From an uncultured Thermoplasmatales archaeon (GTDB taxonomy: Archaea; Thermoplasmatota; E2; DHVEG-1), in contig CAZTMK010000007.1 in NCBI GenBank assembly GCA_964615235.1, forward strand, positions 22,630-86,629: 64,000 nt of DNA, read 5' to 3'. The notes below the pieces were generated by a model, which saw only the letters and a program-made list of their open reading frames with translations, searched no databases and was not told the origin of the DNA. Positions 22,509 to 43,968 of the stretch are shown piece after piece; the stretch's first letter is position 1; the number at the start of each line of letters is the position of its first letter. The translations under genes and the position numbers were made by a program.

Positions 22509-24224
22509 ATGAAAAATAAATTTGTGGCTGATATTTTATACCAAATCGCGGATTTGCTTGATATAAAAGGAGAAATTTTTTTTAAAACCAGGGCCTATAG
22601 GATGGCTGCACAAACTATAGAAGTTCTTGACGAAGATATTGAAACTGTATTAAAGGAAGGTAGACTTGAATCTATTCAAGGTGTTGGAGAAGCACTGGCA
22701 AAAAAAATTAAAGAAATTGTAGAAACCGGAAAACTTGAATATTTTGAAAGATTAAAAAAGGAAATTCCTGAGGGATTGCTTGAACTATTAGAATTGCCCG
22801 GTTTGGGCCCAAAAAAGGTGGCAGCACTTTATAAGAATCTAGGTATAACCACGGTAGATTCTCTTAGAACAGCTTGCATCCAGGGCAAACTTAGAGATTT
22901 GGATGGATTCGGAGAAATAACTGAGAGAAATATACTTAGGGGAATTCAATTAAAAGAAAAAACGAGCGGTCGCGTACTTCTAAATGTGGCCTATCAAGAT
23001 GGAAACAAGTATCATGATTACATAAAAAAGTGTTCAGAAGTTAACAAGTCTGCTCTTGCAGGAAGTTTCCGCAGGAAAAAAGAAACAATTGGTGATCTTG
23101 ACATTCTTGTTTCTTCTGAAAATCCTGACGAGGTAATGGATCATTTCGTAAATTATCCAGATGTTTCAAGAGTTTTGATGAAAGGACCGACGAAAAGTAG
23201 CGTTCTTCTCTTGGATGGTTTACAGGTAGATTTGCGGGTTGTAAAAAAGGAAAGTTACGGGGCGGCCTTGCAATATTTTACAGGTTCAAAGGAACATAAT
23301 GTTAAAATGCGCAGCATTGCAATAAAAAAAGGCTTCAGATTAAATGAATATGGTTTGTTTGAAAAAGATGCAGAGAAATACGTTGCTGGTCGTATAGAAA
23401 AAGATGTATATTCTGCCCTTGGCCTAGAGTATATAGAGCCAGAGTTGCGGGAAAACATGGGTGAAATTGAGGCAGCATCCGAAGGGAAATTACCACATCT
23501 TGTAGAATACAAGGATATCTTGGGAGACTTACATATTCATTCAATTTACAGTGATGGATCAGACTCTATAGAAACTATTGCAACTCATGCCAAAAAATTA
23601 GGTTACAAATATGTTGGTATTGCAGATCATTCTCAGTCCTTGAAGGTTGCTGGGGGACTTTCTGAAGAAAGTTTAATTAAAAAGCAAAATGAAATTCAGC
23701 AGATTAACAAAAAACTAGAGGGCATTACAGTACTTTTCGGCACAGAATGTGATATTAAAACAGATGGAAATTTGGACTATCCTGACTCAGTGCTGGCTAA
23801 ATTTGATTTTGTGATTGTTGGAGTGCATACTGCTTTGAAAATGGATGCAAAACAGATGGAAAAAAGAATTCTATCCGGAATTGAAAATGAACACGCAAAT
23901 ATATTGGCTCATCCAACTGGAAGATTGATTGGCAGGCGTGAACCATTTAAAATTGATATAGAAAATCTAATTGATGCTGCGAAAAAAACAAACACATTTT
24001 TAGAAATAAATTCGTTTCCAGATAGACTGGATTTAAATAATGTACATGCTAAACTAGCAAAAGAAAAGAAAGTAAAATGTGTTATAGGAACAGATGCTCA
24101 TAGCATTGCTAATATGACCTATATGGAATTTGGGGTAGCAACGGCAAGAAGAGGTTGGCAGGAAAAAAGCGATATTTTAAACACTTATGGCTTAAAGGAA
24201 TTCGAGAAAATGCTGGGTAAATGA
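22509..24224 (+). CDS. polX: DNA polymerase X family protein (pol-beta-like core plus C-terminal PHP phosphoesterase domain).
   Basis: HhH motifs, the nucleotidyltransferase motif GSFRRKKETIGDLDILV, and the PHP motifs HIHSIYSDGSDS, GIADHS and GTDAH. Confidence 0.85.
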   Translation: MKNKFVADILYQIADLLDIKGEIFFKTRAYRMAAQTIEVLDEDIETVLKEGRLESIQGVGEALAKKIKEIVETGKLEYFERLKKEIPEGLLELLELPGLGPKKVAALYKNLGITTVDSLRTACIQGKLRDLDGFGEITERNILRGIQLKEKTSGRVLLNVAYQDGNKYHDYIKKCSEVNKSALAGSFRRKKETIGDLDILVSSENPDEVMDHFVNYPDVSRVLMKGPTKSSVLLLDGLQVDLRVVKKESYGAALQYFTGSKEHNVKMRSIAIKKGFRLNEYGLFEKDAEKYVAGRIEKDVYSALGLEYIEPELRENMGEIEAASEGKLPHLVEYKDILGDLHIHSIYSDGSDSIETIATHAKKLGYKYVGIADHSQSLKVAGGLSEESLIKKQNEIQQINKKLEGITVLFGTECDIKTDGNLDYPDSVLAKFDFVIVGVHTALKMDAKQMEKRILSGIENEHANILAHPTGRLIGRREPFKIDIENLIDAAKKTNTFLEINSFPDRLDLNNVHAKLAKEKKVKCVIGTDAHSIANMTYMEFGVATARRGWQEKSDILNTYGLKEFEKMLGK

Positions 24225-26213
<1,989 letters not shown>

Positions 26214-28003: not shown

Positions 28004-30328
28004 TTGGCTGAAGGACAAATTCCCATAGAAGAATACGAAACAGGAAACACAAAACACAAGTGGGATTTGAAAAAAATAAAATCAGCACACAAGATTATTT
28101 CAGAATATAAATTTAAAAAATCTGAAATCCAGAAAGGATTTGCAAATAGAACTCTTTATGTTAATCTATCTACCGGAGAAATCAAGGAAAAAAAAGTAAC
28201 AGAAGATATGAAAAAGAAATTTACCGGCGGTCGGGGATTTGGTTTAAAACTAATGTGGGATTCAATAAAACCCACGACAAGATGGGATAGTCCAGAAAAC
28301 GAGTTAATTATTACTACTGGTCCTTTATGCGGTGTTACTCAATATGCGGGCTCCGGAAAGTCATTGTGTTTAACAGTTTCACCTTCAACTGATATAATTT
28401 GTGATAGCAATGTTGGAGGCTTTTTTGGCCCTTATCTAAAGTTTGCAGGTTTTGATGCAATTGAGATTCAGGGTAAGGCAAAGCAAGACGTAATAATTCT
28501 TGTTGATGGCGAGGAAGGAAAAATTACTATTGAAACGGCACCATTGGAAGAAACTAATTCACATTTGATTGCCGAACAATTAACACATTTGTACGCCTCT
28601 GAAAACACAGATAAATCTAGGCAAAAAGTATCAGTTGTTTCTGCAGGAACTGCAGCAGAACACAGTTACTGGGGTTGTATGAATTTTTCATTTTTTGACA
28701 TTCGCAGAAAGGTTCCAAGAATTAAACAAGCTGGTAGAGGAGGTTTAGGAACTGTTTTACGTGATAAGAAAATCAAGGCAATTGTTGCAAAAGTGGAAAA
28801 GTTTGACGGCGTTTCAAACAATCCTGCTGATCCTGCAAAACTTGTGGAAGTTGGAACTAAACTTCATAGAGAGATTAGAGACCTTGATAAGTATCAGTGT
28901 AACATGAGGGCGGTTGGTACAGTCCATCTTGTTGAGATTATGGATCAATATGATTTGTTGCCAACTGAGAATTATCGTTTCGGAAGCTTTCCCAAAGCAT
29001 CTAAGATTTATTCGCCTGAATTCTATAGATATTTTACAAAAATAATACCTGATGGGTGCTGGCATGGATGCACAATGGCATGTGCAAAAACTGTCGATGG
29101 ATTTACTGTTATGACTGGGCCTTACAAGGGAGAAAGAGTCACAGTAGATGGACCTGAATACGAAACCTGTGGGTGCGGTGCAAACATGAGTCTTTGGGAT
29201 CCAAAATGGATTTTGGAGTTTAACTTCTATTGTGACACGTATGGGCTTGATACAATATCTACAGGAACTTCAATTGCATTTTACATGGAAATGTACGAAT
29301 ATGGAATTTTAAACAAGGAACGATGTGATGGACTCGAGCTTTGTTTTGGAAACGGTGAGGCAGCACTGGAATTTATTCACAGAATAGCTAAGGGAGATAA
29401 GGGAGAGTTTGTAAAAGTTGCTGCAAAAGGCATAAGAAGAGTAAAGGATTGGCTAATCGAGAAGGGATGGGGAGATCCTCAGCTCATTGATGATTGTGGA
29501 ATGGAAAGTAAGGGTTTGGAGTATTCTGAATATGTAACAAAAGAATCCCTAGCAATGCAAGGAGGATATGGACTTACGTTGAAAGGTCCGCAACATGACG
29601 AAGCATGGTTGATTTTCATGGATATGGTTAACAATCAGATTCCAACTTTTAAAGACAAGGCAGAAGCCCTTCATTACTTTCCAATGTGGCGAACTTGGTT
29701 TGGATTGAACGGCCTATGTAAACTTCCTTGGAATGACGTTGAACCCGAAAATAACGCAGAGACAGACGAACCTGCAAAAGTTCCAGAGCATGTACAAAAT
29801 TATGTGGATTATCAAAATGCTGTGACAGGTTGGAAGGTAAACAAAGAAGAGCTTATTTTACAAAGCGAACGTTGTTATAATTGGCAAAGAGCAATGAACG
29901 TTTGGCTAGGTCGTGGTAGACGAAAGGATGATTGGATTCCTTACAGATCAATGGGTCCTGTTACTGAAATGGAGTATATTTCAAGAAGGGATAGGTATGA
30001 TAAACAACTTGTGGAAAAACTTGATCTTGCCGGAGAAGAAGTCGAAAAAATGCCTGTAGCCGAAAAAATAAAACTTTTGTACAATTATCGCCAGGATCAA
30101 TATCAAAAACTTGCCGATGCGGTGTATTTCCGGAGAGGCTGGACCCATAACGGCGTTCCTACCCCACAGAAAATGAAAAAGTTGGGATTTGATGATCCAA
30201 AAATATTAAAAATGTTACAAAAGGCAATTGATGAAGATGAAAAAGCCGGGCTCAATGTTTGGGGCGGAAAATACAAAAAAGGCGAGAAAGCACCGACTAC
30301 GGATCCCAGATATTGGGAAAAATGGTAA
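28004..30328 (+). CDS. Aldehyde:ferredoxin oxidoreductase family tungsto/molybdopterin enzyme, a long 774-aa form.
   Basis: The AOR N-terminal domain (RTLYVNLSTGEIKEKKVTEDMKKKFTGGRGFGL), a central DGPEYETCGCG block, and the overall AOR layout, with ~45-aa N-terminal and ~90-aa C-terminal extensions. The start appears to be TTG at 28004. Confidence 0.75.
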   Translation: MAEGQIPIEEYETGNTKHKWDLKKIKSAHKIISEYKFKKSEIQKGFANRTLYVNLSTGEIKEKKVTEDMKKKFTGGRGFGLKLMWDSIKPTTRWDSPENELIITTGPLCGVTQYAGSGKSLCLTVSPSTDIICDSNVGGFFGPYLKFAGFDAIEIQGKAKQDVIILVDGEEGKITIETAPLEETNSHLIAEQLTHLYASENTDKSRQKVSVVSAGTAAEHSYWGCMNFSFFDIRRKVPRIKQAGRGGLGTVLRDKKIKAIVAKVEKFDGVSNNPADPAKLVEVGTKLHREIRDLDKYQCNMRAVGTVHLVEIMDQYDLLPTENYRFGSFPKASKIYSPEFYRYFTKIIPDGCWHGCTMACAKTVDGFTVMTGPYKGERVTVDGPEYETCGCGANMSLWDPKWILEFNFYCDTYGLDTISTGTSIAFYMEMYEYGILNKERCDGLELCFGNGEAALEFIHRIAKGDKGEFVKVAAKGIRRVKDWLIEKGWGDPQLIDDCGMESKGLEYSEYVTKESLAMQGGYGLTLKGPQHDEAWLIFMDMVNNQIPTFKDKAEALHYFPMWRTWFGLNGLCKLPWNDVEPENNAETDEPAKVPEHVQNYVDYQNAVTGWKVNKEELILQSERCYNWQRAMNVWLGRGRRKDDWIPYRSMGPVTEMEYISRRDRYDKQLVEKLDLAGEEVEKMPVAEKIKLLYNYRQDQYQKLADAVYFRRGWTHNGVPTPQKMKKLGFDDPKILKMLQKAIDEDEKAGLNVWGGKYKKGEKAPTTDPRYWEKW

Positions 30329-39384: not shown

Positions 39385-39786
39385 TTACTCATATTTGTTT
39401 TCTTCAAATTCCAATGCCAATGAGTTAATACAGTATCTTAGACCCGTTGGAGGGGGGCCATCATTGAATAAGTGACCCAGATGGCCACCACAAATTCGGC
39501 AGATAACTTCTGTACGCTGCATGCCTAAACTTTTGTCAGTTTGTGTTTCAATATTTTCCTCAAATGCCGAGAAAAAACTTGGCCATCCAGTGCCTGAATT
39601 AAACTTTGATTTAGAAGAAAATAATGCAGTTTTACAACCAGCACAAATGTAAATACCAGGTTTTTTGTAATTTACATACTTACCAGTAAAAGGAGGCTCG
39701 GTTCCTTTTTCCCTAAGGATATGAAAAACTTTGGGGAGAAGTCGGTTCCTCCATTCGTTTTCACTTAAGTTAATTTTTTTCGTCAT
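39385..39786 (-). CDS. msrB: Peptide-methionine (R)-S-oxide reductase.
   Basis: CAGCKTALF...GWPSF...RTEVICRICGGHLGHLFNDGP. Confidence 0.9.
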   Translation of the reverse strand: MTKKINLSENEWRNRLLPKVFHILREKGTEPPFTGKYVNYKKPGIYICAGCKTALFSSKSKFNSGTGWPSFFSAFEENIETQTDKSLGMQRTEVICRICGGHLGHLFNDGPPPTGLRYCINSLALEFEENKYE

Positions 39787-39794
39787 TATTAATT

Positions 39795-40589
39795 TTAAAC
39801 ATACATGGAGGAGGGTGTTTTGGGAAGTCCTGGTGCTGTGGGTTTAGACTGCTCTAAAAATTTTCTAATATTTGCCTCGATTTTCTTAGCCTCTTTATAA
39901 AGAGGTTCAGGATCTATTTTAATTCCAGGTAATATGATATCTAATTTCTTTACTAAATTTGCAGCCGAACGAGAATCGGGATATGCCTCATGAGCTTCTG
40001 ATAAGAGACAAATCACATTCCTTTTTTCTAAAACACCTTTATAAAGTAGTACCCCTGTAACTCCTGTAATCATTCCCTCTGTGGTCTGGTCAATATTGTA
40101 TTTATCAAGAAATTTTTTCATTTCTGATGTGCTTCCTATTCCATGGACTACGAATTCCTTCTTTTTCAAATCTCCAAGAGCATGGGTTCCTTCCAATGCA
40201 GTGATGATTTTGACCTTTTTTTTATCAGCCCATTCTAGTATTTTTTCTGCAAGTGGCTGAATTATTTCCCATGGCGGCATAAATTCGGATATTATTACAA
40301 CGATTTGTTCGCATGATCCATCAGGACCACAGTTTTTGTTTCCTGTATATATTCTAACTGGTGGCGATGCTTTTGATTTATGAATTATTGCGGTAGGCGA
40401 AAAATATCTAGAAACAATAGATCCAATTTCTTTTAAATTCAAAGAGTCGATAATGTAGTTACCTGCAATTGAGCTAATCATTCCAACCGTTGGAAAAGCA
40501 ACAAGAACCATTGATTCAGATAAATCCATTTTTTTATATTCAAGAATTTTAATTTCTTCCATATTTTCAAATATGATATCATTTATCAC
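39795..40589 (-). CDS. PAC2-family protein (archaeal proteasome-assembly-chaperone-like).
   Basis: LVAFPTVGMISSIAGNYIID at the N-terminus and the overall PAC2 (PF09754-like) pattern. Assigned from memory. Confidence 0.5.
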   Translation of the reverse strand: MINDIIFENMEEIKILEYKKMDLSESMVLVAFPTVGMISSIAGNYIIDSLNLKEIGSIVSRYFSPTAIIHKSKASPPVRIYTGNKNCGPDGSCEQIVVIISEFMPPWEIIQPLAEKILEWADKKKVKIITALEGTHALGDLKKKEFVVHGIGSTSEMKKFLDKYNIDQTTEGMITGVTGVLLYKGVLEKRNVICLLSEAHEAYPDSRSAANLVKKLDIILPGIKIDPEPLYKEAKKIEANIRKFLEQSKPTAPGLPKTPSSMYV

Positions 40590-40694
40590 TACTTAAAAAT
40601 TATTTTTAGGAATTAAGACATTCAAATATAAAAACATTAATATTGCGTTTTAAGTTAGGTTGATAATTAATATATATTAACGTGGGGAGTTTAA

Positions 40695-41087
40695 ATGGGC
40701 AATACCGACGTTGTAGAATTGGATAAAATGCGTTGGAAAGAGATTGTCAAAAATGGGGATAAACCTGCAATGGTAATGTTTTATAGTCCCACATGTGTGC
40801 ATTGTAAGGCAATGGAGCCACATTTTAACAAATATGCTGAAGAATTAAAAAACAAAATCGTTTTTGCAAGGTTAAATATAATCGACAACCAAGAAATTGT
40901 TGCAAGATACGGAATAATGGGAACCCCAACTTTTAAATTGTTTTGCGGGGGTCACCCAATTCAAGAACTTGTGGGAGAGATTTATCCTAGCTTATTAAAA
41001 AAGACTATTGATGACTTGTTTAATTATGGACATCATTGCGTAAAAACAACAACTTGGTTTAAACCTGGAATTACTGGTTATGCATAA
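40695..41087 (+). CDS. Thioredoxin-like protein with an atypical CVHC active site.
   Basis: MVMFYSPTCVHCKAMEP. Thioredoxin fold length of 130 aa. Confidence 0.65.
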   Translation: MGNTDVVELDKMRWKEIVKNGDKPAMVMFYSPTCVHCKAMEPHFNKYAEELKNKIVFARLNIIDNQEIVARYGIMGTPTFKLFCGGHPIQELVGEIYPSLLKKTIDDLFNYGHHCVKTTTWFKPGITGYA

Positions 41088-41670
41088 TTTAGATTTTGAG
41101 GTTCTTATGGAATTAATTGAAGTTATTAATAAAAGGAGGGCATATCGTTCACTTGATAAAACTCAGATATCTGAGGAACTTATCAATTATCTTGCAGAAA
41201 GTGCAAGGTTATCAGCATCTTGCTTTAACAATCAACCTTGGAGATATGTCTTTGTTTATGATTCAAAGGTTCTTAAGGAGATGCATAATGTATTATCATC
41301 AGGTAATGAGTGGGCAAAAAGGGCATCAATGATTGTTGCAGTATGTAGTAAGAAGGAAGATGATTGCTTGATAAAAGATCGGGAATATTATTTATTTGAT
41401 ACAGGAATGGCCTCTGCTTTTTTAATTCTAAGGGCAACTGAACTTGGGCTAGTTGCACACCCAATTGCAGGGTATAGTCCAAAAAAAACACGAGAAATTC
41501 TAAACATCCCAGAGGAAATGGATGTAATAACATTGGTAATTGTTGGCAAACACTCTGACAAGATTTATCCAGAGCTTTCGGCAAAACAAATCCAAACAGA
41601 AAAAAAAAGACCTGAGCGTAAAAAAATCAAAGAATTTGTATATATGAATAAATGGAAGGGAAATAACTGA
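41080..41670 (+). CDS. Nitroreductase-family flavoprotein.
   Basis: RRAYRSLDK...CFNNQPWRYVFV N-terminal nitroreductase signature. It overlaps the thioredoxin gene by 8 nt. Confidence 0.7.
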   Translation: MHNLDFEVLMELIEVINKRRAYRSLDKTQISEELINYLAESARLSASCFNNQPWRYVFVYDSKVLKEMHNVLSSGNEWAKRASMIVAVCSKKEDDCLIKDREYYLFDTGMASAFLILRATELGLVAHPIAGYSPKKTREILNIPEEMDVITLVIVGKHSDKIYPELSAKQIQTEKKRPERKKIKEFVYMNKWKGNN

Positions 41671-41951
41671 TGAGAATTGAGAAGGTGAAGGGTAAAAACA
41701 AGGGAAAAATTATGTTGTATGCGCTTAGTACATGCGTATGGTGTAAAAAAACAAGAAAATTTTTAGATGGACTTGGAGTTGAATATAATTACGTATATGT
41801 TGATCAATTAGAGGAAGATGATAGGAATAAAACAATTGAAGAAATAGAAAAGTGGAATCCAAGATGTTCTTTTCCGACCTTGGTTTTTAATGATGAAAAA
41901 TGTGTTGTTGGATATAAAGAAGACGAAATAAAAGAGGCATTAAAAATATGA
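41670..41951 (+). CDS. Glutaredoxin-like CxxC protein.
   Basis: [19 protein letters not shown]. 93 aa. Confidence 0.65.
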
Positions 41952-42457
41952 GTTTTGAACCTTCGTATGGAGAAATCGATAAGCTTTACAATAAACTTGA
42001 TAGAGAGGCTGAGGCATCTGGATATCACCTAAATCCCGATAAAGATTTTACAAAGGAACTTGTTAAAAGCCTTATAATTAATGAAAAACGTTACGGGTAC
42101 TGGGCCTGCCCCTGCAGATTAGCTTCAGGAGATAAACAAGAAGATCTTGATATAATATGTCCATGTGATTATAGAGATGCAGATGTTGATGAATACGGTG
42201 CTTGCTATTGTGCTCTGTATGTTTCCAGAGAGATAAAGGAAGGAAATAAAACTCCCGAATCTATTCCCGAACGACGACCACCAAGGGAAAAGAGATCCCA
42301 GATAAATAAAAACAAAACTTCGTCTTTTGTTTCTGGATCTTTAAAAAAGCCTGTTTGGAGATGCAGAGTTTGCGGTTATCTATGTGCTAGGGATGAACCT
42401 CCCGGAGTTTGCCCGATATGTAAGGCAAAAAAAGAGAGATTTGAAAGATTTCTATAG
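41948..42457 (+). CDS. Ferredoxin:thioredoxin/disulfide reductase catalytic subunit fused to a C-terminal rubredoxin-like domain (FDR type).
   Basis: The FTR catalytic motif CPC...CPC...CYC ([10 protein letters not shown]...IICPCDYRD...GACYCALYV) plus a rubredoxin-like CRVCGY...CPICKA tail. The same architecture is described for the Methanosarcina ferredoxin:disulfide reductase. Confidence 0.75.
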
Positions 42458-42460
42458 AGT

Positions 42461-42646
42461 TTATCCTCCCCTAAAATCATCGCATGCGTCTTCGTTTTCC
42501 ATTGGGCGAGCATGTTCAGCATGTGCAGGTTGAAGACACGGTTCTAATGGAAATTCTTTCATCGGTTTTCCACAACAATCGGGAATTGAAGCTTTTTCTG
42601 TGGTGATTATTTTTCCGCATTCCTCGCATTTATAACTTTTTTTCAT
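42461..42646 (-). CDS. Small zinc-ribbon protein (rubredoxin/desulforedoxin-like Cys pairs).
   Basis: 61 aa. CEECGK...DCCGKP. It is convergent with the FDR gene. Confidence 0.4.
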   Translation of the reverse strand: MKKSYKCEECGKIITTEKASIPDCCGKPMKEFPLEPCLQPAHAEHARPMENEDACDDFRGG

Positions 42647-42962
42647 TAAGTCATGACAGGAATTTGTAATATTTTATTTTTTCCACAAAAAAAATGAATT
42701 TTCTATGTTTCAGGTATTGTATATTTGTATATTAGATAAGAATTTGGCAACTTTTACCCTTTTAAAGATAAACGAATAATTTCAAAATTATTCTAATGGC
42801 CATATTTATAAAAAGATTTAAATATTTATAAGACAAATATTATTGTAATCTGAGTATGTTAATACTTTGAAGGACAAAAATCAATAAAATAATTGATACA
42901 ATAAAATAAAAAATATAGATTAAAAATCTCTTATAAACTGGCTTAAACTTAGAGGGAAGAAA

Positions 42963-43046
42963 ATGTCAAGACATCTAATATTTGCAGGAATAACTTCTAT
43001 AATATTAATTTTAATTATAATGTTTTTATCAACTTCAATGTTTTAA
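42963..43046 (+). CDS. Candidate 27-aa hydrophobic mini-protein.
   Basis: MSRHLIFAGITSIILILIIMFLSTSMF. It is preceded by the SD-like AGAGGGAAG, 7 nt upstream. It lies in an ~800-bp non-coding gap. Confidence 0.25.
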   Translation: MSRHLIFAGITSIILILIIMFLSTSMF

Positions 43047-43211
43047 TAAAATTTGAAAAATTTATTGAGAAAAGCTTGAGTTGTATTCTAACCCTTATTT
43101 GCTCGCTCTCAAATGCGATTTTTTAAAAAAACATAAATTTTTATAAACATTAATTATAATACGTAATCAATAAAGTTTCAATTGTAAAAAATTGGCAAAT
43201 GATGGGGTAGC

Positions 43212-43307
43212 ATGATAAGTATATTAGTTAGAATAATGATATTGGGCATAGGTTTTGTAATCTTGAGTTGGCTTTTTAGAAAAAATTATCTTCATTCTGA
43301 TAGTTGA
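43212..43307 (+). CDS. Candidate 31-aa hydrophobic mini-protein.
   Basis: MISILVRIMILGIGFVILSWLFRKNYLHSDS. A GGGG run sits 6 nt upstream. Same intergenic gap. Confidence 0.2.
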   Translation: MISILVRIMILGIGFVILSWLFRKNYLHSDS

Positions 43308-43458
43308 TGCCTATTTAGAAATTATTTGAATATAATAAGGGTTTTTTTAAAATTGCAATGAAAATTTTTTAAAATGCTTTCTTCTATCCGTCTTTTAATA
43401 TTGCACAAAAAATTGTAATAAATTGAAAGTAATAATGTGTATTGTTGGGGTAAGGATA

Positions 43459-43968
43459 ATGACACCAAAAATTGATAAAACGAGTTTTGTAGCAAGTTCT
43501 GCAGTCATAATTGGAAATGTAAAAATTGGCAAAAATTGTGGAATATTTCCCAATGCTGTAATAAGAGGTGATAAAAATGAAATCAATATTGACGATGGAT
43601 CCAACGTCCAAGACTGTGCAGTTATCCATACTGACTCTGAACACAAGGTAAACATTGGGAAAAACGTATCAATTGGACACGGTGCCATAGTGCATGGGGC
43701 AACCATTCACGACAATGTTATTGTCGGGATGCATGCAACTATCATGAACGGTGCAATTGTTGAAAGAGGATCAATAATAGGCGCAAGTTCCCTTGTTACA
43801 GCTAACAAAAAAATTCCAACCCATAGTCTAGTAACAGGAGTTCCAGGAACGGTTATCAAACAGGATAAAAATTACGAAGAGATGTGTATTAAAAATGCGG
43901 AGGAATATCATAAATTAACAGATCAACATTTACATAATAAGCACGCTTATTATAAAAAAACAAATTAA
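43459..43968 (+). CDS. Gamma-class carbonic anhydrase / hexapeptide-repeat (LbH) protein.
   Basis: AAGGATA SD before MTPKIDK. Left-handed beta-helix hexapeptide repeats. HTD...H...H metal ligands typical of the gamma-CA/PaaY family. Confidence 0.75.
   Translation: MTPKIDKTSFVASSAVIIGNVKIGKNCGIFPNAVIRGDKNEINIDDGSNVQDCAVIHTDSEHKVNIGKNVSIGHGAIVHGATIHDNVIVGMHATIMNGAIVERGSIIGASSLVTANKKIPTHSLVTGVPGTVIKQDKNYEEMCIKNAEEYHKLTDQHLHNKHAYYKKTN

What the first reader, a model, noticed from the sequence alone, without database searches (positions are those of the whole stretch)
40695..42646. Four-gene thiol-redox operon: thioredoxin(CVHC)-nitroreductase-glutaredoxin-like-FTR/rubredoxin fusion
Four consecutive genes overlap or abut at 41080/41087, 41670 and 41948/41951. 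The first is a thioredoxin-fold protein with the non-canonical CVHC active site. The second is a nitroreductase-family flavoprotein. The third is a glutaredoxin-like CxxC protein. The fourth is a ferredoxin:disulfide reductase, the FTR catalytic CPC..CPC..CYC core fused to a rubredoxin domain. A convergent 61-aa Zn-ribbon gene follows. This looks like a self-contained ferredoxin-driven disulfide-reduction pathway with its own client redoxins. The FDR architecture is known from Methanosarcina. Fusing it into an operon with a nitroreductase and an atypical CVHC thioredoxin is not a standard described arrangement.
Basis: partly seen in the sequence, partly recalled or inferred. Interest (0 to 1): 0.5.

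Follow-up and report, generated by a model that had tools for sequence, protein, structure and literature searches.

The report
Ferredoxin-driven disulfide reductase operon, archaeal
This is a real, tightly packed operon encoding a ferredoxin-powered disulfide reductase and its glutaredoxin-like partner, a pair already characterised in Methanosarcina, here joined by an unusual thioredoxin and a flavin nitroreductase in one archaeal lineage, so it is mostly ordinary.

Summary
Four co-directional genes sit at 40695-42457, followed by a convergent 61-aa gene.

The last two genes are orthologs of a solved and characterised Methanosarcina acetivorans pair. These are ferredoxin:disulfide reductase (FDR, PDB 4tpu, E=1e-75) and the glutaredoxin-like methanoredoxin (MRX, PDB 5cax, E=7e-32). 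FDR is reported to reduce MRX. Grx-FDR adjacency occurs in 79 of 80 genome loci across archaea and bacteria, and a natural Grx-FTR fusion exists (7pwe).

The nitroreductase belongs to the subfamily fused to a peroxiredoxin in Thermotoga maritima (4eo3). It precedes Grx-FDR in several phyla.

The thioredoxin belongs to a ~130-aa family typified by M. mazei 3hz4 (MaTrx1-type). Its usual motif is CP[H/Y/F]C, and CVHC is a rare variant (2 of 91).

The full Trx-NTR-Grx-FDR order recurs only in a Thermoplasmatota subclade.

The "Zn-ribbon" is better described as a desulforedoxin-like six-Cys protein.

Verdict: a new member of a known system with a lineage-specific expansion. The roles of the nitroreductase, the thioredoxin and the small protein remain inferred. 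Interest is low to moderate.

The parts
40695..41087 (+). Atypical thioredoxin of 130 aa, of the MaTrx1/MmTrx5 type. Active site CVHC (C34, C37). It carries a second invariant Cys pair (C84, C115) and a C-terminal extension ending in ITGYA.
   Evidence: Pfam Thioredoxin 3e-23. Best PDB hit is 3hz4, an M. mazei Trx, at 4e-40 over residues 3-129. The AF2 model has pLDDT 79 and the canonical beta-alpha order. Foldseek top hit is 3hz4 with TM 0.84-0.93 and rmsd 1.3 A. Family motif census. Invariant columns.
41107..41670 (+). FMN nitroreductase-family protein of 187 aa. It would be 196 aa if the ATG at 41080 were used. It belongs to the subfamily of the Ntr domain of the T. maritima peroxiredoxin-nitroreductase hybrid.
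   Evidence: Pfam Nitroreductase 3e-17. PDB 4eo3 residues 144-321, 8e-46. Start-site evidence. C39 and C87 are invariant in 119 homologs and in 4eo3. More than 5900 homologs, about 70% identical across phyla.
41670..41951 (+). Glutaredoxin-like protein of 93 aa, an ortholog of methanoredoxin (MRX). Active site STCVWCKKT.
   Evidence: PDB 3nzn at 4e-32 and 5cax at 7e-32, with an identical STCVWCKKT motif. The STCxWC motif is 100% conserved in 65 orthologs. It lies directly upstream of FDR in 79/80 loci.
41948..42457 (+). Ferredoxin:disulfide reductase (FDR; NCBI name 'ferredoxin:glutaredoxin reductase'). It has an FTR catalytic-subunit-like [4Fe-4S]/disulfide domain fused to a C-terminal rubredoxin domain.
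   Evidence: PDB 4tpu at 1.4e-75 over residues 8-169, with all Cys aligned. Pfam FeThRed_B and RUBY_RBDX. All ten Cys and Y87 are at least 96% conserved over 75 orthologs. Source names.
42461..42646 (-). Convergent 61-aa six-Cys protein. It has an N-terminal desulforedoxin-like C-x2-C...CC domain and a conserved C-terminal tail (AE..R....CDD.R.G). Function unknown.
   Evidence: It is conserved in the same position in 8 related loci. The family has about 90 representatives with invariant C7, C10, C24, C25, C37, C55, E44 and R47. 23 of 60 members hit Pfam Desulfoferrod_N; the window protein scores 18.5 bits against a cut-off of 23. Foldseek top hits are desulforedoxin 1dxg and Dfx N-terminal domains, but at E=0.1.
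40590..40694 (.). 105-bp AT-rich divergent intergenic region between the PAC2 gene and the thioredoxin gene. It is the presumed promoter region. GGGGAG lies 4 nt before the ATG.
   Evidence: Sequence. It is 92% identical to the corresponding region of L002. No transcription data are available.

Best explanation
This is an operon for ferredoxin-dependent thiol/disulfide maintenance in an anaerobic, probably non-methanogenic, Thermoplasmatota archaeon.

Proposed electron path:
1. Reduced ferredoxin donates electrons one at a time. A possible source is the aldehyde:ferredoxin oxidoreductase encoded in the same window.
2. The electrons enter the rubredoxin Fe(Cys)4 centre of FDR.
3. They pass to the active-site [4Fe-4S] cluster, which together with the adjacent Cys56-Cys88 disulfide performs a two-electron disulfide reduction, as in plant FTR. 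A Tyr (CYC) replaces the FTR His.
4. The dedicated acceptor is the co-translated glutaredoxin-like methanoredoxin (CVWC).
5. Methanoredoxin then reduces oxidised protein disulfides or sulfenates, for example in peroxiredoxin- or Msr-type clients.

Three genes are lineage-specific additions to this core:
- The MaTrx1-type thioredoxin (CVHC) is proposed as a second redoxin, with a more oxidising potential, fed by the same reductase.
- The 4eo3-type FMN nitroreductase is proposed as a co-expressed NAD(P)H-dependent quinone/electrophile reductase of the same oxidative-stress response.
- The desulforedoxin-like protein is conserved in position but has no assigned role.

What is shown: gene identities, motifs, orthology to the characterised proteins, and conserved gene order.

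What is taken from the literature: FDR uses ferredoxin and reduces MRX.

What is inferred: the clients, the role of the thioredoxin, and the role of the nitroreductase.
For: Orthology:
- FDR matches 4tpu at 1.4e-75, with all 6+4 Cys and the CYC Tyr.
- Grx matches methanoredoxin 5cax and 3nzn at about 1e-32, with an identical active site.

Literature:
- FDR reduces a Trx (PMC6262447).
- NCBI names close homologs 'ferredoxin:glutaredoxin reductase'.

Coupling of Grx and FDR:
- Grx-FDR adjacency occurs in 79/80 genome loci from archaea and at least 10 bacterial phyla.
- PDB 7pwe is a natural Grx-FTR fusion in the same order as the genes.
- The stop and start codons overlap.

Stress context elsewhere:
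- Neighbours of Grx-FDR include peroxiredoxin, desulfoferrodoxin, rubrerythrin, ferritin, flavodiiron protein, hemerythrin, NifS/NifU/Rrf2 and 2-oxoacid:ferredoxin oxidoreductase.

Nitroreductase:
- NTR-Grx-FDR occurs in Thermoplasmatota, WOR-3, TA06 and another archaeal contig.
- Prx-NTR-Grx-FDR occurs in L008.
- The same NTR subfamily is fused to a peroxiredoxin in T. maritima.

Full order:
- Trx-NTR-Grx-FDR-(small protein) is kept in L002, L014, L062, L084/85 and L086, with Trx identity of 53-89%.

Ferredoxin source:
- An AFOR gene lies at 28004-30328.
Against: - No expression or biochemical data exist for this organism.
- In M. acetivorans the Trx reported as reduced by FDR is Trx5 (GCPKC-type). 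The window protein resembles MaTrx1/MmTrx5 (ACPYC-type), which lacks insulin reductase activity. The only held source, PMC6262447, is internally inconsistent on this point between its text and its Table 1.
- In Methanosarcina-like contigs this Trx type is a stand-alone gene.
- For the T. maritima hybrid, the nitroreductase and peroxiredoxin domains are reported to work independently, without exchanging electrons (PMC8395237). Adjacency may therefore mean co-regulation only.
- No peroxiredoxin, rubrerythrin or superoxide reductase is encoded in this 64-kb window.
- MsrB adjacency is kept only in the nearest relative.
Confidence: 0.75

Rival explanations
1. Only Grx-FDR is a functional unit, and the rest is a co-regulated stress regulon. 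The thioredoxin is reduced by some other reductase. The nitroreductase independently uses NAD(P)H to reduce quinones or nitro compounds. The small Cys-rich protein is unrelated. Clustering then reflects shared regulation, not a shared electron path. This overlaps with the best explanation for the core and differs on the added genes.
For: - The T. maritima Prx-NR domains function independently (PMC8395237).
- The Trx is the least stable member of the cluster. It is absent from L003, L005, L048 and L091, stand-alone in L082, L083, L088 and L089, and rearranged in L087.
- The NTR subfamily also occurs without Grx-FDR, next to OFOR in L090 and next to Prx/rubrerythrin/NrdD in L092.
Against: - The junctions are tight or overlapping, including the NTR-Grx junction, which also overlaps in L091 and L087.
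- Nitroreductase association with Grx-FDR recurs in at least 4 lineages and with two different nitroreductase subfamilies.
Confidence: 0.35
2. The nitroreductase-fold flavoprotein is an integral redox partner of the Grx-like protein. It could be an NAD(P)H-linked alternative reductase of the redoxin, or a thiol-dependent flavoenzyme that draws electrons from it. The operon would then have two inputs, or one dedicated output.
For: - The NTR stop overlaps the Grx start here and in L091.
- An NTR-Grx pair exists without an adjacent FDR in L087.
- The subfamily is about 70% identical across phyla, which is unusual for promiscuous xenobiotic reductases.
- Two Cys are invariant in 119 homologs and in T. 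maritima 4eo3. One of them lies in the SC(F/M)NNQPW segment, which in other nitroreductases lines the flavin site (the location is from general knowledge of NfsB-type enzymes).
- A second nitroreductase subfamily independently follows FDR in Methanosarcina.
Against: - No nitroreductase-fold enzyme is known to reduce protein disulfides.
- The T. maritima hybrid showed no electron exchange between its domains (PMC8395237).
- Most Grx-FDR loci (about 67/80) have no nitroreductase nearby.
Confidence: 0.12
3. The system delivers electrons to one specific enzyme rather than to general thiol repair. Candidates are an anaerobic ribonucleotide reductase, as reported for a Methanosarcina barkeri FDR/NrdH-like pair, or Fe-S cluster assembly.
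For: - A ferredoxin disulfide reductase is reported to deliver electrons to the M. barkeri class III RNR (Wei et al. 2015, listed in PMC6262447).
- NifS/NifU/Rrf2 genes lie just upstream of Grx-FDR in several bacterial loci.
- NrdD follows the NTR in L092.
Against: - No nrdD, NifS or NifU homolog lies in the window (for NifS/NifU; no NRDD-type ORF was noted near the operon).
- The neighbours of Grx-FDR vary widely between lineages, which fits a general-purpose reductant better.
Confidence: 0.08

Closest known systems
Methanosarcina acetivorans ferredoxin:disulfide reductase (FDR, MA1659; PDB 4tpu) with methanoredoxin (MRX, MA1658/AAM05066; PDB 5cax)
   Same: - Same two-domain FDR architecture, FTRc-like plus rubredoxin, with all Cys and the CYC Tyr conserved.
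- Same Grx-like partner, with an identical STCVWCKKT site.
- Same gene order, Grx then FDR.
- A nitroreductase-family gene is also adjacent in Methanosarcina loci.
   Different: - The host is a Thermoplasmatota-like archaeon with no sign of methanogenesis in the window. The coenzyme M-dependent activity described for MRX is therefore unlikely to apply.
- The nitroreductase is of a different subfamily (28% identity) and sits upstream rather than downstream.
- A MaTrx1-type thioredoxin and a desulforedoxin-like gene are added to the cluster.
Plant/cyanobacterial ferredoxin:thioredoxin reductase (FTR, catalytic plus variable subunit; e.g. PDB 7bzk, 2puk)
   Same: The catalytic-domain fold family is shared (PF02943), as is the CPC...CPC...CxC arrangement that ligates a [4Fe-4S] cluster next to a redox-active disulfide.
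   Different: - Similarity is weak (E=1.4e-3 to 7bzk).
- Tyr replaces the His of CHC.
- A rubredoxin domain is fused to the protein.
- No variable-subunit gene was seen next to it.
- The partner is a Grx-like protein, not an m/f-type thioredoxin.
Grx-FTR single-chain fusion, PDB 7pwe ('Ferredoxin-thioredoxin reductase subunit B', 196 aa)
   Same: It contains both window proteins as domains, in the same order. Residues 5-82 match the Grx-like protein (2e-15) and residues 87-191 match FDR residues 9-113 (1e-35).
   Different: It is one polypeptide and lacks the rubredoxin domain. No paper on it was found in the held library.
Thermotoga maritima peroxiredoxin-nitroreductase hybrid (PDB 4eo3)
   Same: The nitroreductase domain is the closest solved relative of the window nitroreductase (8e-46). 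Both invariant Cys are shared. Both are associated with thiol-peroxidase/redoxin systems.
   Different: The window protein stands alone and has no Prx domain. In T. maritima the Prx is regenerated by an NADH/TrxR/Grx-like system, not by an FDR (from memory of Couturier 2013; PMC8395237 confirms only that T. maritima TrxR oxidises NADH and reduces a Grx-like protein).
Methanosarcina mazei thioredoxin 3hz4 (MmTrx5, homolog of MaTrx1)
   Same: - Same length class and the same C-terminal extension.
- About 46% identity in the Foldseek alignment of the model to 3hz4, and E=4e-40 by sequence.
- Same extra Cys pair.
   Different: - The active site is CPYC there and CVHC here.
- The Methanosarcina-like genes are stand-alone rather than in an FDR operon.
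- The function of MaTrx1 is reported as unknown (PMC6262447).

Membership tests
FDR (ferredoxin:disulfide reductase, FTRc-like + rubredoxin) | FTR catalytic-subunit domain with six Cys in a CPC...CPC...CxC arrangement | tested here: met
   PF02943 at 6.8e-24. C54, C56, C71, C73, C86 and C88 align without gaps to 4tpu and are at least 97% conserved in 75 orthologs.
FDR (ferredoxin:disulfide reductase, FTRc-like + rubredoxin) | Tyr in place of the FTR active-site His (CYC rather than CHC) | tested here: met
   Y87 is present and 96% conserved. Its significance is taken from my recollection of Prakash et al. 2018, which is not in the held library.
FDR (ferredoxin:disulfide reductase, FTRc-like + rubredoxin) | C-terminal rubredoxin domain with a Cys4 site | tested here: met
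   PF21349 at 2.1e-14 over residues 137-166. C139, C142, C155 and C158 are at least 97% conserved.
FDR (ferredoxin:disulfide reductase, FTRc-like + rubredoxin) | Binds [4Fe-4S] and Fe(Cys)4, oxidises ferredoxin and reduces disulfides | not testable with these tools
   This needs purified protein, spectroscopy and activity assays.
Methanoredoxin (Grx-like partner of FDR) | Grx fold with a CxWC active site and close similarity to 5cax | tested here: met
   PF00462 at 1.7e-11. 5cax at 6.6e-32 with an identical STCVWCKKT motif.
Methanoredoxin (Grx-like partner of FDR) | Encoded directly upstream of FDR | tested here: met
   There is a 4-nt overlap with FDR. The same adjacency is found in 79/80 loci.
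Methanoredoxin (Grx-like partner of FDR) | [quoted passage not shown] | not testable with these tools
   This is a biochemical property (PMC7278568). The pair is widespread in non-methanogenic bacteria, so CoM dependence cannot be general.
Plant-type FTR heterodimer | CHC motif with the catalytic His | tested here: not met
   The motif is CYC. The match to chloroplast FTRc 7bzk is only E=1.4e-3.
Plant-type FTR heterodimer | Separate variable subunit | tested here: not met
   No additional subunit gene is present. All neighbouring ORFs are otherwise assigned.
MaTrx1/MmTrx5-type thioredoxin (3hz4 family) | Thioredoxin fold, about 130 aa, with a C-terminal extension and four invariant Cys | tested here: met
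   3hz4 at 4e-40. Foldseek TM 0.84-0.93. C34, C37, C84 and C115 are invariant in 38 aligned members.
MaTrx1/MmTrx5-type thioredoxin (3hz4 family) | Family active-site consensus C-P-[H/Y/F]-C | tested here: not met
   The window has CVHC. Census of 91 homologs: CPHC 35, CPYC 25, CPFC 9, CVHC 2. This is a variant of the first X residue. The His is kept.
Prx-associated nitroreductase (4eo3 Ntr-domain subfamily) | Nitroreductase fold with close similarity to 4eo3 residues 144-321 and the SC(F/M)NNQPW and DC motifs | tested here: met
   4eo3 at 7.7e-46. C39 and C87 are invariant.
Prx-associated nitroreductase (4eo3 Ntr-domain subfamily) | Fusion to a peroxiredoxin domain | tested here: not met
   The window protein stands alone at 187-196 aa. 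A Prx is a separate upstream gene in L008 and lies nearby in L092.
Desulforedoxin-type Fe(Cys)4 domain (61-aa protein) | C-x2-C ... C-C motif, the Dx fold and a Pfam PF06397 match | tested here: inconclusive
   The motif is present and invariant. The window protein scores 18.5 bits, below the 23-bit cut-off. 23 of 60 family members match, with a best E-value of 7e-7. The six best Foldseek hits are Dx or Dfx, but the best E-value is 0.1. Metal identity was not tested.

The most novel reading that the evidence does not exclude
The conserved 4eo3-type nitroreductase could be a dedicated flavoprotein partner of the FDR-methanoredoxin couple. It has two invariant Cys, is about 70% identical across phyla, and has its stop codon overlapping the Grx start codon. 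It might provide an NAD(P)H-linked second input, or act as a thiol-driven flavin reductase output. In the same reading, the MaTrx1-type thioredoxin and the six-Cys desulforedoxin-like protein are further specific components. That would define a five-protein ferredoxin/flavin thiol-redox module and give functions to three orphan families.
Probability: 0.15. Interest if true: 0.55.

Novelty: new member of a known kind. Interest (0 to 1): 0.27.

Why it matters
The finding extends the ferredoxin:disulfide reductase/methanoredoxin system to Thermoplasmatota. Until now it has been characterised only in Methanosarcina.

The near-universal Grx-FDR pairing across non-methanogenic archaea and bacteria indicates that direct ferredoxin-to-Grx electron flow is the conserved physiological mode, rather than coenzyme M.

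The lineage-specific operon gives concrete, testable candidates for three poorly understood families:
- the MaTrx1-type thioredoxins, whose function is reported as unknown
- the peroxiredoxin-associated nitroreductase subfamily
- a six-Cys desulforedoxin-like small protein

The gain is in annotation and hypotheses. It is not a new principle.

Tried and rejected
Literature:
- The primary papers could not be read because they are not held. These were Kumar 2015, Yenugudhati 2016, Prakash 2018, Wei 2015, Couturier 2013 and McCarver 2014.
- Statements about them therefore come from citing papers (PMC6262447, PMC7278568, PMC6491703, PMC8395237) or are marked as my recollection.
- Searches for '7PWE', for 'glutaredoxin reductase' with FTR, and for the four-gene combination found nothing relevant.

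Source genome:
- An exact look-up of the 196-aa nitroreductase found no contig.
- The cluster look-up shows only an unnamed 90,341-bp NCBI contig.

RNA and intergenic DNA:
- No Rfam family or tRNA was found anywhere in the window.
- The Trx/PAC2 intergenic region is 92% identical to L002, too close to reveal regulatory motifs.

Structure:
- Model coordinates are not exposed. The C84-C115 distance and the CxxC geometry of the thioredoxin could not be measured.

Rejected readings:
- Classical plant-type FTR was rejected, because the motif is CYC and there is no variable subunit.
- Generic Zn ribbon for the 61-aa protein was rejected, because the hits are desulforedoxin-like.
- A CoM-dependent role was rejected, because the pair is widespread in bacteria.
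- An RNR-specific role was rejected, because there is no nrdD nearby.

Not attempted: the sigma-70 promoter scan, which is not applicable to archaea.
Full report
**Observation**

- 40695-41087 (+, 130 aa)
- 41080-41670 (+, 196 aa)
- 41670-41951 (+, 93 aa)
- 41948-42457 (+, 169 aa)
- 42461-42646 (-, 61 aa)

The junctions were read directly:
- TGATG gives a 1-nt overlap between the nitroreductase stop and the Grx start.
- ATGA gives a 4-nt overlap between the Grx stop and the FDR start.
- The convergent stops of FDR and the 61-aa gene are 3 nt apart.

One correction applies. The 41080/41087 overlap depends on using the most upstream ATG. Most orthologous nitroreductases start at the Met encoded at 41107, which has GAGG 6 nt upstream. 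The Trx-nitroreductase junction is therefore more likely a 19-nt spacer.

Pfam confirms every domain call:
- Thioredoxin, 3e-23
- Nitroreductase, 3e-17
- Glutaredoxin, 2e-11
- FeThRed_B, 7e-24, plus a rubredoxin-like domain, 2e-14

**What the four proteins are**

*The 169-aa protein.*
- It matches PDB 4tpu, the Methanosarcina acetivorans FDR, at E=1.4e-75 over residues 8-169. The FTR-like part aligns without gaps.
- The six FTR-type Cys (C54, C56, C71, C73, C86, C88), the Tyr of CYC and the four rubredoxin Cys are at least 96% conserved over 75 orthologs.
- NCBI names close homologs 'ferredoxin:glutaredoxin reductase'.

*The 93-aa protein.*
- It matches the M. mazei and M. acetivorans Grx-like structures 3nzn and 5cax at about 1e-32.
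- Its STCVWCKKT active site is identical to theirs.
- I assign 5cax to methanoredoxin from memory; the PDB record says only 'Glutaredoxin'.
- The STCxWC motif is 100% conserved in 65 orthologs.

*The nitroreductase.*
- Its closest solved relative is the Ntr domain of the Thermotoga maritima peroxiredoxin-nitroreductase hybrid 4eo3, at 8e-46.

*The thioredoxin.*
- Its closest solved relative is the M. mazei thioredoxin 3hz4, at 4e-40 over 127 residues.
- An AF2 model built from 38 family members has pLDDT 79 and the canonical beta1-alpha1-beta2-alpha2-beta3-alpha3-beta4-beta5-alpha4 order.
- The model superposes on 3hz4 with TM 0.84-0.93 and rmsd 1.3 A.
The CxxC geometry could not be measured, because model coordinates are not exposed.

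**The CVHC motif in context**

Ninety-one homologs form a defined family of about 130 aa. Their CxxC motifs are distributed as follows:

| Motif | Count |
|---|---|
| CPHC | 35 |
| CPYC | 25 |
| CPFC | 9 |
| CAHC | 5 |
| CVHC | 2 |

CVHC is therefore a rare first-position variant of a family whose norm is already non-canonical.

The family also has two further invariant Cys (C84, C115), the cis-Pro loop (TPT), and a conserved C-terminal tail ending in ITGYA.

From general knowledge of CxxC dipeptides (Trx CGPC, Grx CPYC, PDI CGHC, DsbA CPHC), such motifs imply a more oxidising potential than canonical thioredoxin. That fits the report that the M. acetivorans homolog (MaTrx1) lacks insulin reductase activity and has unknown function (PMC6262447).

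**Comparative genomics**

A scan of one genome per species returned 80 loci encoding FDR relatives of 62-88% identity. tblastn with the window proteins gave these results:
- A Grx-like gene lies directly upstream of FDR in 79 of 80 loci. The loci span Thermoplasmatota, Methanosarcinaceae, WOR-3, TA06, Aminicenantes, Chloroflexi/Dehalococcoidia, Ignavibacteria, Spirochaetota, Zixibacteria, Acidobacteriota, Thermodesulfobacteriota and others.
- PDB 7pwe is a single chain that matches the Grx-like protein with residues 5-82 and FDR with residues 87-191. It is a natural fusion in gene order.
- The window-type nitroreductase lies directly upstream of Grx-FDR in L002, L003, L005, L014, L048 and L062 (Thermoplasmatota), L008 (WOR-3) and L010 (TA06).
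- It also lies 1.5 kb downstream of Grx-FDR in L035, and directly upstream, with overlapping junctions, in an unrelated 575-kb archaeal contig, L091.
- In L008 a peroxiredoxin gene precedes the nitroreductase. This mirrors the T. maritima fusion.
- In Methanosarcina loci (L016, L022, L058) a different nitroreductase subfamily directly follows FDR. It is 28% identical to the window protein, and its best PDB hits are 3e10 and 3m5k.
- The full Trx-NTR-Grx-FDR order, with the convergent small gene, recurs in L002, L014 and L062.
- It also recurs in loci found through the thioredoxin. L084/L085 have a DUF1122 gene inserted, and L086 has an extra nitroreductase upstream.
- In Methanosarcina-like contigs the thioredoxin is a stand-alone gene. 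In L087 it is rearranged relative to an NTR-Grx pair, with no FDR adjacent.

The second refutation condition, separation of the genes in close relatives, is therefore not met for the Thermoplasmatota subclade. The thioredoxin is nonetheless the least stable member of the cluster.

**Functional context elsewhere**

I clustered the neighbouring ORFs of all loci and scanned representatives against Pfam. Grx-FDR often sits among:
- oxidative-stress genes: peroxiredoxin, desulfoferrodoxin, rubrerythrin, ferritin-like protein, flavodiiron protein and hemerythrin
- Fe-S assembly genes: NifU and Rrf2 by Pfam; NifS judged by eye from the sequence
- 2-oxoacid:ferredoxin oxidoreductase

None of these is present elsewhere in this 64-kb window. 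The window does encode an aldehyde:ferredoxin oxidoreductase at 28004-30328, which is a plausible source of reduced ferredoxin.

**Literature**

- MRX used CoM-SH in the insulin assay (PMC7278568).
- An FDR reduces MaTrx5 (PMC6262447). According to that paper's text, MaTrx5 corresponds to the GCPKC-type MmTrx4, and the ACPYC-type MmTrx5 (the 3hz4 type) corresponds to MaTrx1. Its Table 1, however, puts 'FDR' on the MmTrx5/MaTrx1 row.
- I could not resolve this conflict, because the primary papers are not held.
- The T. maritima Prx-NR hybrid has an FMN-containing, NADH-dependent quinone/nitro-reductase domain. [quoted passage not shown]

**Mechanism**

Shown here or published for orthologs:
- an FTR-like [4Fe-4S]/disulfide active site
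- a rubredoxin domain
- a dedicated Grx-like acceptor

Inferred:
- Ferredoxin reduces the rubredoxin centre, which feeds the cluster-disulfide site.
- That site reduces the CVWC disulfide of the Grx-like protein.
- The Grx-like protein then reduces oxidised protein thiols.

The pair is conserved in many non-methanogenic bacteria, so coenzyme M cannot be the general reductant. Direct FDR-to-Grx transfer is the conserved mode; this too is inference.

The thioredoxin is proposed as a second client, and the nitroreductase as a co-expressed NAD(P)H-dependent detoxifying flavoenzyme. Both assignments carry low confidence.

**Points that keep a more novel reading open**

- The nitroreductase subfamily is very large, with more than 5900 hits at E<1e-20, and about 70% identical across phyla.
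- Two of its Cys are invariant in 119 homologs and in 4eo3. One lies in the SC(F/M)NNQPW segment.
- Its stop overlaps the Grx start here and in L091.
- An NTR-Grx pair occurs without an adjacent FDR in L087.

**The 61-aa gene**

- It is conserved, convergent, directly after FDR in eight related loci.
- A full HMMER scan found about 90 small representatives.
- C7, C10, C24, C25, C37, C55, E44 and R47 are invariant.
- 23 of 60 members hit Pfam Desulfoferrod_N, with a best E-value of 7e-7. The window protein itself scores below the cut-off.
- An AF2 model (pLDDT 78) has desulforedoxin 1dxg and desulfoferrodoxin N-terminal domains as its six best Foldseek hits. The best E-value is only 0.1.
- It is better described as a desulforedoxin-like six-Cys protein than as a generic Zn ribbon. 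Its function is unknown.

**Verdict**

- The Grx-FDR core is a known, widespread and biochemically characterised system.
- The association with a nitroreductase is recurrent.
- Only the inclusion of the MaTrx1-type thioredoxin and the small Dx-like gene is lineage-specific.

I rate this a new member of a known kind, with interest about 0.27.

Noticed in passing
window 42461-42646 (-); also L002, L005, L007, L014, L048, L062, L084, L086: The 61-aa 'Zn-ribbon' belongs to an uncharacterised family of about 60-70-aa proteins. The family has six invariant Cys, with a desulforedoxin-like C-x2-C...CC motif plus two more, and a conserved AE..R....CDD.R.G tail. It sits convergently after FDR in the Thermoplasmatota loci.
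   Followed up: yes
window 41107-41670 (+): The nitroreductase subfamily has two invariant Cys in 119 homologs and in T. maritima 4eo3. These are C39 in SCFNNQPW and C87 in the DC motif, numbered from the Met at 41107. It is about 70% identical across phyla, which is unusual for a generic nitroreductase. The likely true start is 41107, not 41080.
   Followed up: partly
L016:5585-6094, L022:1990-2499, L058:5837-6346: In Methanosarcina genomes a different nitroreductase subfamily lies directly downstream of Grx-FDR on the same strand. It is 28% identical to the window protein, and its best PDB hits are 3e10 and 3m5k. This looks like an independent association of nitroreductase-fold genes with FDR.
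   Followed up: partly
window 39385-39786 (-): An MsrB gene lies on the opposite strand upstream of the operon, beyond the PAC2 gene. It has two CxxC Zn motifs and the catalytic RYCINS Cys. It carries SGTGWPSF, with Thr where, from memory, 2-Cys MsrBs carry the resolving Cys. It would then be a 1-Cys MsrB, a type that typically depends on Grx-like reductants. The adjacency is kept only in the nearest relative, L002.
   Followed up: partly
window 39795-40589 (-); L002; L087:3132-3899: A PAC2 (proteasome assembly chaperone family) gene is divergently paired with the thioredoxin gene. The same divergent pair is found in L002 and in the more distant L087, whose Trx is 51% identical.
   Followed up: no
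window 42647-43422: This is a 775-bp AT-rich stretch with no ORF of 50 aa or more lying wholly within it. It has no Rfam or tRNA match. It holds two small hydrophobic ORFs: 42963-43046 (27 aa, preceded by GAGGGAAG) and 43212-43307 (31 aa).
   Followed up: no
window 22509-24224 and 24228-26213 (+): A PolX-type polymerase (Pol beta thumb plus PHP domains) is directly followed by an NAD-dependent, bacterial-type LigA DNA ligase, in what otherwise looks like an archaeal contig.
   Followed up: no
L004:1-669, L021:3354-4724: In other Thermoplasmatales MAGs a class-I pyridine-nucleotide-disulfide oxidoreductase directly precedes Grx-FDR, where the window has the nitroreductase. The same gene family also lies nearby on the opposite strand in L014 and L062.
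   Followed up: no
window 43423-43968 (+): A gamma-carbonic-anhydrase/PaaY-like hexapeptide-repeat protein is encoded here. The listed TTG start is probably too far upstream, and an ATG at about 43459 preceded by GGTAAGGA looks more likely.
   Followed up: no
one search hit list (P0006-P0034): A subgroup of FDR homologs is about 50 aa longer (211-220 aa) and carries a stronger match to Pfam DUF7130. Some members of the 61-aa protein family match the neighbouring Pfam entry DUF7129.
   Followed up: no
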